Shown here one piece after another: positions 30,001-33,000 of a stretch of DNA of 64,000 nt. The position numbers are program-made. The stretch lies in NCBI RefSeq assembly GCF_030013205.1, contig NZ_CP122648.1, one strand, 5' to 3'. The DNA is from Escherichia coli (GTDB lineage: Bacteria; Pseudomonadota; Gammaproteobacteria; Enterobacterales; Enterobacteriaceae). Positions within the stretch are counted from its first letter, which is position 1. Every line of letters starts with the position of its first letter.

Positions 30001-33000
30001 GATGGGCGCACGCACCTGCGCGCCGGCAATGGAGATCATCAGTGATACAGCTCGCAGTAACATCCCGGCGCTGGGCTATGCGGGCACCTACGCAATCGCC
30101 AACGTCCTGCTGACGCTGGCAGGGACAATCATCGTCATGGTATGGCCAGGATTAGGATAAAACTGAAGTTGCCCTGAAAATGAAATTTTTTTGCACAACC
30201 GCAGAACTTTTCCGCAGGGCATCAGTCTTAATTAGTGCCACTGCTTTTCTTTGATGTCCCCATTTTGTGGAGCCCATCAACCCCGCCATTTCGGTTCAAG
30301 GTTGGTGGGTTTTTTGTTGCCTAAAATTTATGCCTTTTAAAATCATGATATTAGAAGCACTGTTTTTTAACGATGGCGACAAAATGGCGGCAGCGTCAAA
30401 GAGAGAGCGCCACCTGTCCTGATTTCATTGGATGCGGCTGAACCGGATTTGACTCTTTTGGCGTTGCAATCGAACGAACAAAAGTTTCATGGGTAACAAA
30501 AGTATGGCTGCAGTTAATGTTCTGGCACTGGTTGTAACGCTCTTTGGTCAATGAAGATACCTGAAAACTGCTGCGAGTATGGGCGGCACTTCCACACAGT
30601 GGGCAAATCATCATTTTTCGAGTTCTCCCCATTTTTGCTAAATTCACAATAATGATACCGCATTATTCCATTTTGCAAACTTAAAAGTTCTCCATTGCGA
30701 AGAATCATTCCATTTCGAAATCATCAATCCTCACTTCAAGCTCCAGACTGGTCGTAAAACCGTTATCCGGGCTGACGGTATGAGTCAGAGTCGTAATGGT
30801 CCATTCCGCATCATCTATCGGTTGTTTAAAGCCACTAACTTTCACTGGCATTTCCGTGTAAAGATCTGCCCGCCCTTCCGCCAGTTGTAGCGAGAATGAC
30901 GCAACGCCGCGTTGCAGGCGTTCCCACTGCATTTTCGCTGCCCGTTCAGCGTTGCTCCGGTTGGCATAAGTGCGATTAAGTACCAGCACGTTTTCATCCG
31001 TACCCACCAGGTAATCGCCCTGCTTCGCTTCCGGCTCTTTCTTCTGCTTCTTAGTTCTGCGCTTACGCTTCACCGTGGTACTTTCTTTCTTCGCAGGTTC
31101 GCGGGTATGCAACCAGCTGGCAATTACGCCCGTGTAGGCTCCGCGATCTGCCAGGGTAAAGCGGTGACTGTCGCCGTCCTTGCGTGTGATAGTGATCACT
31201 GGCAGTGGTTTACCAGTGGCGTTTTTGCCCTGCCCCTGCCGGATGAATAACAGATTGCCATTTTTCACCGACGCGATGGCACCGTACTGTCGCGCCAGCC
31301 GCATCAGAAAACTGCCGTCACTCTCATTAGTCTGGTCTATATGCTCCACGGGCTTATCCGACAGGTCTTTACCCAGTGCCATCTTCAGCTTGTGCCGCGC
31401 GGCTATTTCCTTCACCACTTCCCCGACGGTGGTCTTGTGCCACGACTTTTCACGACGGGTATTCAGCGTTTCCCGAAAATCAGCACTTCGCGCCCGGATA
31501 GTCAGGCGGTCCGGTGCGCCAGTGTGTTCAATCTCGTCCACCGTGAATGCCCCTTTCGGGAAAAGCGGCTGCCCCTTCCAGCCCAGCGCCAGCGTAATGA
31601 CCGCACCACGGCGCGGCAGCACGATTTTTCCGTCGGCGTCGTCCAGCTCCAGATCAAGCTGGTCTGCGTCAAAGCCCCGGTTATCCGTCAGCGTCAGCCC
31701 CATCAGGCGGTTGTCCAGCACAGTGGTGATACCTTCGTTGACTTCAACAACGCGCACCCCGTGGTGAAAATCATTCATTTGTATACCCACCATAGCCAAG
31801 GAACAACATATTCTCTATATTTTTTCAGTTAATAACTATTCGTGATTTATGTATAGCATCTGGTACAATCCACAAATGAAGTTAAATTGATTAATTCTCC
31901 TCGGAGAAATTCATTACCCATATGGTGCAAGTTGAGAATCCACACATGAAACTTAATACAAGAGACGAAAAACAGATAATTATTGAAAGAATGGATTGGA
32001 TTGACACCATGAAGTTTCTTGGCATACTCGCCATTTATATAGGCCATTTCTACCAAGCATCAGGAAAATTATATCCTTTTGTTTTTATGTATCACGTCCC
32101 TCTATTTTTCTTCATTTCAGGTTTTTTCTCATCATTAACAGACTTTAAATTCAACCCACATTTTTTAGTTAAAAAATTCAAGCGACTAATGGTGCCTTAT
32201 TTCATTTTTGCATTTATAAATCTAGCGTTGATTGCGGTAAACAAAAACTACGATACCGAATCAATCCTTAAGTCTATTTATGAAATCATCTGCGGAATAA
32301 GAAACACGCCTGCAGTTGGCACCATATGGTTCATTAACTGTCTTTTCGTTATAATAGTTATTGATTACATCACTTACACATTAATTAAAAACAGAACACT
32401 TGTTTTAATAATAGCATTAGCGGTACATTTCTATACACAATTGTTAATGCCTCACAATCCACTAAGTGCGCCAAAGTGGTTTATGAATATTGACTCAGCC
32501 TTAGCATACTGGTGGCTACTAGCAAGCGGCAGACAATTTTTTCCAATTTTAAAAAAATCAATCAATACATATAATAAACTCCTACCAATATGCATTTTCA
32601 TAGCATCAGGTGTGTTTACGGCGTATGCACTATTCAATTCTCAGTTCATAAATCAATATATCATTAATACATACATGCCAAATTTATCCAAGATTAATAT
32701 AGTTAATATAATCAATAATGACATTGGCATTTTAATCATTATCCTATTTAATGCTTTTCTTGCAAAGCGGCTATCCCGGATAAATCTACTAAAAAACATG
32801 GGAAAAAACACATTAAATATATGTGGCTTTGAAATGGGTACAAAACTCTTAATTTCGACTGCTATTATGATCCCTGGGTTAAGACTTCTATTACCTACAC
32901 CTCTATCAGCAGTCCTATACTCCTCAATATGTGTTATCTTTGCTCATCACATTACAACTTATTTATCAGCGAAATTCCCCTCGATATTCTCAATACGTTA

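What the first reader, a model, noticed from the sequence alone, without database searches (positions are those of the whole stretch)
30705..31799. Apparent in-frame fusion of a tail-sheath N-terminus to gpD, marking an internal deletion of the sheath-tube-tape-measure block
The gpD ORF begins MNDFHHGVRVVEVNEGITTV, which resembles the N-terminus of P2 tail sheath protein FI as I recall it, and then continues as gpD (LTDNRGFDADQLDLELDDADGK...). In P2 the order is G, Z/fun, FI, FII, E, T, U, D; here D follows the Z/fun-slot gene directly. A deletion from early in FI to early in D, in frame, would explain both. The same reasoning places a second deletion junction near 39200-39265, where the cII-like 3' end overlaps a putative R fragment.
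Basis: inference. Interest (0 to 1): 0.4.

Follow-up and report, generated by a model that had tools for sequence, protein, structure and literature searches.

The report
Deletion scar fusing sheath start to gpD
In a decayed P2-like prophage of a pig-associated E. coli lineage, a deletion has joined the first 47 bases of the tail-sheath gene in frame to a truncated baseplate-hub gene (gpD); this is an ordinary scar of prophage decay, not a new gene.

Summary
The observation and the interpretation both hold. The ORF lies on the minus strand (30705-31778; the real start is ATG 31778, not TTG 31799).

**The fusion**
- Residues 1-16 are the N-terminus of tail sheath FI. They match 16/16 to the sheath of sister E. 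coli genomes and 11/16 to P2 FI.
- Residues 17-357 are gpD residues 26-366 (330/341 identical to Klebsiella phage 4LV2017 gpD).
- The junction is at window 31732|31731. It is blunt and in frame.

**What was lost**
- Sister pig E. coli genomes are 99.96% identical on both sides and carry 3,641 extra bases there.
- Measured against an intact phage, 5,761 bases are missing (sheath, tube, E/E', tape measure, U and the start of D).

**The rest of the prophage**
- The second junction is real: cII::R at 39221-39225, about 16.5 kb lost, out of frame.
- The 11.8-kb remnant between ybjL and rcdA also has a 38-bp deletion in gpI.
- Of five mapped junctions, only FI::D is in frame, as chance would allow.

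**Distribution and annotation**
- The junction occurs in 7 of 5,426 complete E. coli genomes, all from pigs.
- Sister genomes carry two other deletion alleles of the same block.
- RefSeq already marks this gpD as a pseudogene missing its N-terminus.

Interest is low.

The parts
30705..31778 (-). Chimeric ORF FI'::'D (357 codons plus stop). It is expected to be inert as a tail gene.
   Evidence: ORF. Alignments to FI and D. Pfam PF05954 Phage_GPD matches residues 58-336 (95.2 bits) with no sheath domain. The exact protein is in NCBI as 'phage late control D family protein', on 37 contigs.
31732..31778 (-). Tail-sheath (FI) derived segment: start codon plus 47 nt (codons 1-15 and two bases of codon 16).
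   Evidence: 100% identical to the first 47 nt of the annotated sheath gene of E. coli W13-16 (L003 13923-13969). 92.7% identical to 4LV2017 FI nt 10-50.
30705..31731 (-). gpD-derived segment, from nt 75 of a full-length D (residue 26) to the stop.
   Evidence: 96.8% identical to 4LV2017 32014-33040. RefSeq annotates exactly 31730-30705 in strain K_EC180 as a pseudogene 'missing N-terminus'.
31731..31732 (.). FI::D deletion junction, GAAGG|TATCACC on the minus strand. It is blunt, with no shared base at the join.
   Evidence: A 7-nt word GAAGGCA occurs across the left breakpoint and 5-11 nt before the right one, but the product is not the simple microhomology product.
31850..31867 (.). TGT-N12-ACA dyad, the likely Ogr-binding site of late promoter pF that now precedes the chimeric ORF.
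   Evidence: One of only 7 matches in 64 kb. Its centre is 80 nt upstream of ATG 31778. The annotated P2 pF activator site is centred 83 nt upstream of FI. It aligns with a TGT-N12-ACA of 4LV2017. Function is inferred.
30396..30614 (-). ogr (late-gene activator), intact, downstream of the chimeric ORF.
   Evidence: Pfam Ogr_Delta 77.6 bits. A 72-aa CDS is annotated in sister genomes. A promoter-like site lies at 30679-30652.
31922..33001 (+). Acyltransferase-family gene in the P2 Z/fun slot, immediately upstream of the chimeric ORF on the opposite strand.
   Evidence: Pfam Acyl_transf_3 62 bits. GC 0.325. P2 gene order.
39221..39225 (.). Second deletion junction, cII::R. About 16.46 kb (replication, capsid and lysis genes) is missing. 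It is out of frame.
   Evidence: Window 39883-39221 equals 4LV2017 3918-4581, and window 39225-38662 equals 21046-21609. Frames. RefSeq marks both as partial pseudogenes.
39226..39621 (-). cII remnant, C-terminus lost. The ORF runs on to 39199 through R-derived sequence.
39045..39225 (-). gpR remnant: only the last ~59 codons plus stop.
   Evidence: Pfam P2_Phage_GpR profile positions 86-133 of 133.
35178..35745 (-). gpI, broken by a 38-bp deletion between window 35481 and 35480.
   Evidence: Two overlapping ORFs. Annotated 'frameshifted' in sister genomes.
30305..42106 (-). The whole defective P2-like prophage (~11.8 kb) between ybjL and rcdA. Gene order: int, CI, apl-like, cII', 'R, S, FRG gene, V, W, J, I(fs), H, G, acyltransferase, FI'::'D, ogr.
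   Evidence: Colinearity with 4LV2017. A 13-nt exact att repeat TTTTTTGTTGCCT lies at 30310-30322 and 42092-42104, matching the 4LV2017 att core. Flanking genes.

Best explanation
The feature is a deletion junction in a defective P2-like (Peduoviridae) prophage integrated between ybjL and rcdA of E. coli.

An illegitimate (blunt, non-homologous) deletion removed everything from nt 48 of the tail-sheath gene FI to nt 74 of the baseplate-hub gene D. By chance the two reading frames were left in register. The product is a 357-codon chimeric ORF: 16 sheath residues followed by gpD residues 26-366. It has inherited FI's start codon, its ribosome-binding region and the Ogr-dependent late promoter pF.

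The ORF is a by-product of decay. The sheath, tube, E/E', tape measure, U, all capsid, lysis and replication genes are gone, and gpI is frameshifted, so no tail or virion can be made.

- Shown: the origin of both halves, the exact breakpoint, the in-frame join, the second (cII::R) junction, the gpI deletion, and the existence of sister alleles with the deleted DNA.
- Inferred: that pF would still drive the chimera if Ogr were made, and that the protein has no function.
For: - Both halves map colinearly to an intact phage: FI nt 10-50, then D nt 75 to the end.
- Five sister genomes (for example W13-16, ETEC1701) are 99.96% identical on both sides. They carry 3,641 extra bases at exactly 31732|31731, comprising FI, FII, E, E' and tape-measure remnants.
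- Protein alignments: residues 1-16 match FI 16/16; residues 17-357 match gpD 330/341.
- Intact D proteins of the same cluster are 366 aa with a different N-terminus.
- No phage record contains the chimeric N-terminus contiguously.
- Frame arithmetic: only 1 of 5 mapped junctions in this prophage is in frame, which fits chance (about 1 in 3 each).
- The junction is present in 7 independent complete genomes and 37 contigs, so it is not an assembly error.
- A TGT-N12-ACA dyad lies at the P2-like distance upstream of both the chimera and V.
- RefSeq independently flags the D part as 'missing N-terminus'.
Against: - Nothing contradicts the deletion origin.
- It is not established whether the deletion started from an intact FETUD operon (5.76 kb lost) or from the already damaged W13-16-type allele (3.64 kb lost). 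The few flanking SNPs do not order the alleles.
- Lack of function is inferred, not tested. The Pfam GPD match is as strong in the chimera as in intact D, and the chimera has regained a start codon and promoter that the W13-16-type D remnant lacks.
Confidence: 0.95

Rival explanations
1. The ORF is a native gpD variant whose N-terminus merely resembles a sheath N-terminus, with no deletion involved.
For: FI and D share a small fortuitous similarity near the breakpoints: FI ...NEGTRSITTV and D ...IEGRDITTV.
Against: The first 47 nt and the 13.9 kb upstream are identical to sister genomes, where they continue into a full 389-aa sheath gene. Intact D homologues begin MNFSSELL.... No phage record has the chimeric N-terminus.
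Confidence: 0.01
2. The junction is an assembly or sequencing artefact (a collapsed region).
For: Several sister assemblies show single-base homopolymer differences that may be sequencing errors.
Against: The identical junction is in 7 complete genomes from different laboratories and countries (South Korea, Belgium), and the exact protein is on 37 contigs. There is no repeat at the breakpoints that could cause a collapse.
Confidence: 0.01
3. The in-frame fusion was selected. It re-equips a promoter-less, start-less D remnant with pF, a ribosome-binding site and an ATG, giving a domesticated orphan hub protein or restoring pF-to-ogr read-through.
For: - In the W13-16-type allele the D remnant has lost its first 53 nt and sits out of frame behind a truncated T; in the window it regains a start.
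- The Ogr-type dyad is retained.
- ogr is intact.
- Independent deletions in this block all end inside D and spare ogr.
Against: - One in-frame junction out of five is what chance gives.
- The seven carriers are near-identical, so they represent one event in one clone.
- Partner tail genes are absent.
- Another allele in the same lineage reduces D to 129 nt, so D is dispensable.
Confidence: 0.04

Closest known systems
Defective P2-like prophages of E. coli, e.g. Sp13 of O157 Sakai (PMC2669165), and, from my own knowledge, the E. coli K-12 P2 remnant that keeps only a gpD fragment (yegZ) plus ogrK (Barreiro and Haggard-Ljungquist 1992)
   Same: It is a P2-family prophage that has lost most morphogenetic genes by internal deletion. 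It retains the att-proximal end with ogr and part of D. [quoted passage not shown]
   Different: It occupies a different integration site (ybjL/rcdA). The baseplate and tail-fibre genes V-W-J-H-G are kept. The D remnant is fused in frame to the sheath start. Three deletion alleles coexist in one clonal lineage.
Intact P2-like phage Klebsiella phage 4LV2017 (Elveevirus, NC_047818) and phage P2 (NC_001895)
   Same: Gene order and sequence match: 87-97% nucleotide identity to 4LV2017 over all retained blocks. Late-promoter geometry matches P2.
   Different: The window lacks 4LV2017 positions 4582-21045 and 26253-32013. It carries different cargo genes in the orf30 and Z/fun slots and a different immunity region.
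Another chimeric D in the same protein cluster: the 297-aa E'(1-20)::D(80-end) protein (P0008)
   Same: It is also an in-frame deletion chimera ending inside D. It lies at the same ybjL/rcdA site, followed by ogr, and is annotated as an ordinary protein.
   Different: The left partner differs (E', not FI), as does the prophage remnant (L007 has a SNIPE/T5orf172 cargo gene and a far shorter remnant).

Membership tests
P2 gpD / Phage_GPD baseplate hub (PF05954) | Significant match to the Phage_GPD profile above the gathering score | tested here: met
   95.2 bits against a cut-off of 30.1, residues 58-336, profile positions 28-302 of 305. The span is the same as in intact 366-aa D.
P2 gpD / Phage_GPD baseplate hub (PF05954) | Full-length protein with the native N-terminus (residues 1-25 of the 366-aa form) | tested here: not met
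   The alignment starts at D residue 26. Residues 1-25 are replaced by 16 sheath residues. RefSeq calls it 'missing N-terminus'.
Contractile tail sheath FI (PF04984, PF17482, PF22671) | Sheath domains present | tested here: not met
   The intact sister FI has all three domains, starting at residue 26. The chimera has none and keeps only residues 1-16.
P2-like (Peduoviridae) prophage | P2 gene order and homology of retained genes, with att repeats and an integrase at the end | tested here: met
   Colinear BLAST blocks to 4LV2017. Pfam families for CII, R, S, tail fibre assembly (G slot), D and Ogr. att repeat. P2 map.
P2-like (Peduoviridae) prophage | Complete set of replication, capsid, lysis and tail genes (a functional phage) | tested here: not met
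   4LV2017 positions 4582-21045 and 26253-32013 are absent. gpI is frameshifted by a 38-bp deletion.
Ogr-dependent late promoter pF | TGT-N12-ACA activator site at about -55 from the transcription start (about 80 nt before FI) | tested here: met
   Dyad at 31850-31867, 80 nt before the ATG. The P2 annotated site is 83 nt before FI.
Ogr-dependent late promoter pF | Ogr-dependent transcription | not testable with these tools
   Needs a reporter assay or RNA-seq with Ogr supplied.

The most novel reading that the evidence does not exclude
Deletions in the F-E-T-U-D block of ybjL/rcdA-site P2 remnants arise repeatedly, always end inside D and always spare ogr. There are at least four independent alleles: FI::D, T::D, E'::D-3' and E'::D. 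This pattern would reflect selection to remove sheath, tube and tape-measure genes while keeping ogr and the cargo genes. The in-frame FI::D chimera would then be an expressed, Ogr-inducible orphan hub protein with a host-beneficial role, for example interference with incoming P2/P4-type phages.
Probability: 0.04. Interest if true: 0.35.

Novelty: new member of a known kind. Interest (0 to 1): 0.15.

Why it matters
Mostly it does not; this is routine prophage decay. Two practical points follow.

1. Because the join is in frame and the Pfam GPD domain is untouched, some public annotations list the 357-aa chimera as an ordinary 'phage late control D family protein'. RefSeq, in contrast, calls the same locus a pseudogene. 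That makes it a small caution for protein databases and for prophage-completeness callers.

2. The locus offers a clean natural series: three deletion alleles in near-identical pig E. coli genomes, with base-exact breakpoints. It could serve as a lineage marker, or as a worked example of stepwise prophage erosion by short-homology or blunt deletions.

Tried and rejected
- **ITTV repeat.** I tested whether the deletion was mediated by the 12-nt imperfect repeat encoding ITTV in both FI and D (ATTACCACGGTG and ATCACCACTGTG). Rejected: the product lacks the FI codons TRS that such an exchange would keep.
- **7-nt word GAAGGCA.** I tested simple microhomology at this shared word. Rejected: the observed junction lacks the 6 nt CAGGGA that this product would contain, so the join is blunt.
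- **Ordering the three alleles.** I compared flanking SNPs. The two FI::D sequences compared (the window and K_EC180) share two private SNPs (42091, 38030), and the T::D genomes share one derived SNP (27489). This makes them sister groups and leaves the ancestral state unresolved.
- **Source genome.** K_EC180 is 100% identical over the 2.1-kb junction query but has a frameshifted CI that the window lacks, so it is not necessarily the source genome.
- **P2 pF alignment.** The MAFFT alignment of the P2 pF region to the window was too diverged to align the activator sites directly. I compared distances to the start codon instead.
- **PADLOC.** The scan gave nothing for the acyltransferase, the small YdcA-like ORF or CI.
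- **Structure prediction.** I did not run structure prediction, because it could not change the verdict.

Full report
**What is at the coordinates.**
- The ORF listing gives a 364-codon ORF at 30705-31799 on the minus strand, starting at a TTG.
- Seven codons in lies ATG 31778 (MNDFHHGVRVVEVNEGITTV...). This is the annotated start of the tail-sheath gene in sister genomes.
- Pfam sees only Phage_GPD in this ORF.
- Downstream on the same strand is an intact ogr (30396-30614).
- Upstream, on the opposite strand, is an acyltransferase-family gene (31922-33001). Beyond it lie G (the tail-fibre assembly gene), H, a broken I, J, W and V.
- In P2 the order is G, Z/fun, FI, FII, E/E', T, U, D, ogr.

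**Origin of the two halves.**
- Megablast against the phage collection found Klebsiella phage 4LV2017 as the closest intact relative (97% identity), but only from query position 370 onward.
- A full comparison shows six colinear blocks:
  - integrase end;
  - immunity region to cII (to reference nt 4581);
  - R from nt 21046 to S;
  - V to H;
  - a 41-nt block equal to FI nt 10-50;
  - abutting it without a gap, D nt 75 through ogr and attR.
- At protein level, residues 1-16 match FI (16/16 to the W13-16 sheath, 11/16 to P2 FI) and score nothing in D. Residues 17-357 match D residues 26-366 (330/341 to 4LV2017, 200/358 to P2).
- FI contributes 47 nt (50 in 4LV2017 numbering, codon position 2). 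D resumes at codon position 3, so the join is in frame.

- Intact D proteins in the same 90%-identity cluster are 366 aa and begin MNFSSELLNKGNKTPAFSISIEGRDITTV.
- A tblastn of the 51-residue chimeric N-terminus against 50,697 phage records found 366 records with partial matches and none covering 80% of it. The first 16-20 residues hit sheath genes and residues 17-36 hit D genes.
- The interpretation therefore survives its own test.

**Sister alleles give base-exact breakpoints.**
- In 5,426 complete E. coli genomes the junction is present in seven, all from pigs: K_EC180 and ETEC1748, 4067, 4069, 4070, 4071 and 4079.
- Ten further pig isolates are 100% identical up to window 31732 and then continue into a sheath gene.
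- In W13-16 and ETEC1701 the flanks are 99.96% identical to the window, and 3,641 extra bases sit between window 31732 and 31731.
- The junction reads GAAGG|TATCACC and has no shared base. A 7-nt word GAAGGCA lies near both breakpoints, but the product is not the one simple microhomology would give.
- The W13-16-type allele is itself damaged. It has a 1,348-bp deletion inside T and a 768-bp deletion from T into D that removes U and the first 53 nt of D.
- ETEC4068 carries a third allele in which E' nt 60 is joined to the last ~130 nt of D.
- Counts: seven FI::D genomes, and ten with an intact sheath start. One search confirms five of those ten as T::D. The other five are read as E'::D-3'. Only ETEC4068 was inspected directly; the other four are assigned from their lacking a second D match.
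- Flanking SNPs make the FI::D and T::D groups sister clades but do not say which state is ancestral. The FI::D event therefore removed either 3,641 bp or about 5.76 kb.

**The second junction and the rest of the remnant.**
- cII (to reference nt 4581) meets R (from nt 21046) at window 39221-39225, with up to 5 nt of overlap in the alignment. About 16.46 kb of replication, capsid and lysis genes is missing.
- This junction is out of frame. cII runs eight codons into R sequence and stops.
- gpI carries a 38-bp deletion at 35481|35480.
- The element spans about 30305-42106 between ybjL and rcdA. It is bounded by a 13-nt exact repeat that matches the 4LV2017 att core.
- Of five mapped deletion junctions only FI::D is in frame, which is what chance predicts.

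**How it most likely works.**
- It is a scar. The chimera inherits FI's ATG and the region upstream.
- That region contains a TGT-N12-ACA dyad (31850-31867) centred 80 nt before the ATG. P2's annotated pF activator site is centred 83 nt before FI.
- A second dyad (37615-37632) lies 56 nt before V, as in P2 pV.
- Only seven such dyads exist in the 64-kb window, fewer than shuffles give. The two correctly placed ones are therefore meaningful by position, not by count.
- I infer that if Ogr were produced, pF would transcribe the chimera and ogr. The product, a hub protein lacking its first 25 residues and all its assembly partners, could not build anything.
- The Pfam GPD match is unchanged by the truncation. 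This explains why some annotations list it as an ordinary protein, while RefSeq marks 31730-30705 as a pseudogene missing its N-terminus.

**Comparison with what is known.**
- Defective P2-like prophages lacking most morphogenetic genes are documented, for example Sp13 of O157 Sakai (PMC2669165).
- From my own knowledge, E. coli K-12 keeps a P2 remnant consisting of a D fragment and ogrK.
- A second in-frame chimera, E'(1-20)::D(80-end), occurs in another remnant at the same chromosomal site.
- The present case is one more member of this kind. Its only distinction is the tidy allelic series in one clonal lineage.

**Verdict.** The biology is ordinary. Interest 0.15.

Noticed in passing
window 37653-38588 (+): A 311-aa FRG-domain protein (Pfam FRG 70.7 bits) sits between S and V on the opposite strand, in the slot of P2 orf30. 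GC is 0.37. It matches the PADLOC candidate defence family PDC-S15 (E 8.5e-32). It is a likely anti-phage cargo gene that may help explain why the remnant is retained.
   Followed up: partly
window 31922-33001 (+): An acyltransferase-family (Acyl_transf_3) membrane protein sits in the P2 Z/fun slot. GC is 0.325, far below its neighbours. It may be a surface-polysaccharide-modifying cargo gene. It has no PADLOC match. It is present in only 17 of 5,426 complete E. coli genomes, all pig-associated.
   Followed up: partly
window 26985-26990 (nfsA, minus strand): nfsA is split into 60-aa and 198-aa ORFs by a one-base loss in a T run (T5 here, T6 in all four sister genomes compared). This is either a real loss-of-function allele (nfsA inactivation is the classic first step to nitrofuran resistance) or a homopolymer sequencing error.
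   Followed up: partly
window 35480-35481 (gpI): A 38-bp deletion frameshifts baseplate gene I. It is flanked by GTGG/TGG short repeats and is shared by all alleles of this remnant.
   Followed up: yes
L003 17123-17124 and 17590-17591 (E. coli W13-16): The sister allele that keeps the sheath gene has two further deletions: 1,348 bp inside the tape-measure gene, and 768 bp from T into D. RefSeq nevertheless annotates its N-terminally truncated D (348 aa, non-canonical start) as an intact protein.
   Followed up: yes
L002 (ETEC4068), reverse-complement positions 36681-36682: The third allele joins E' nt 60 to the last ~130 nt of D. The junction sequence CCGCTG|GTGGC creates a Chi octamer (GCTGGTGG). 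The same E' breakpoint (after ...VMPL) is used by the unrelated 297-aa E'::D chimera P0008. This is either coincidence or a local deletion hotspot.
   Followed up: no
L007 3104-4780 and 8001-8894: Another, much shorter P2-like remnant occupies the same ybjL/rcdA site in a different E. coli. It carries a SNIPE/T5orf172-domain cargo gene next to the integrase and the in-frame E'::D chimera followed by ogr. This site appears to collect decaying P2-like prophages.
   Followed up: partly
window 40580-40771 (+): A 63-aa ORF with a hydrophobic N-terminus lies between CI and int. It is cysteine-rich, has GC 0.35, and one RefSeq record labels it 'YdcA family protein'. It is a small secreted-looking cargo gene of unknown role.
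   Followed up: no
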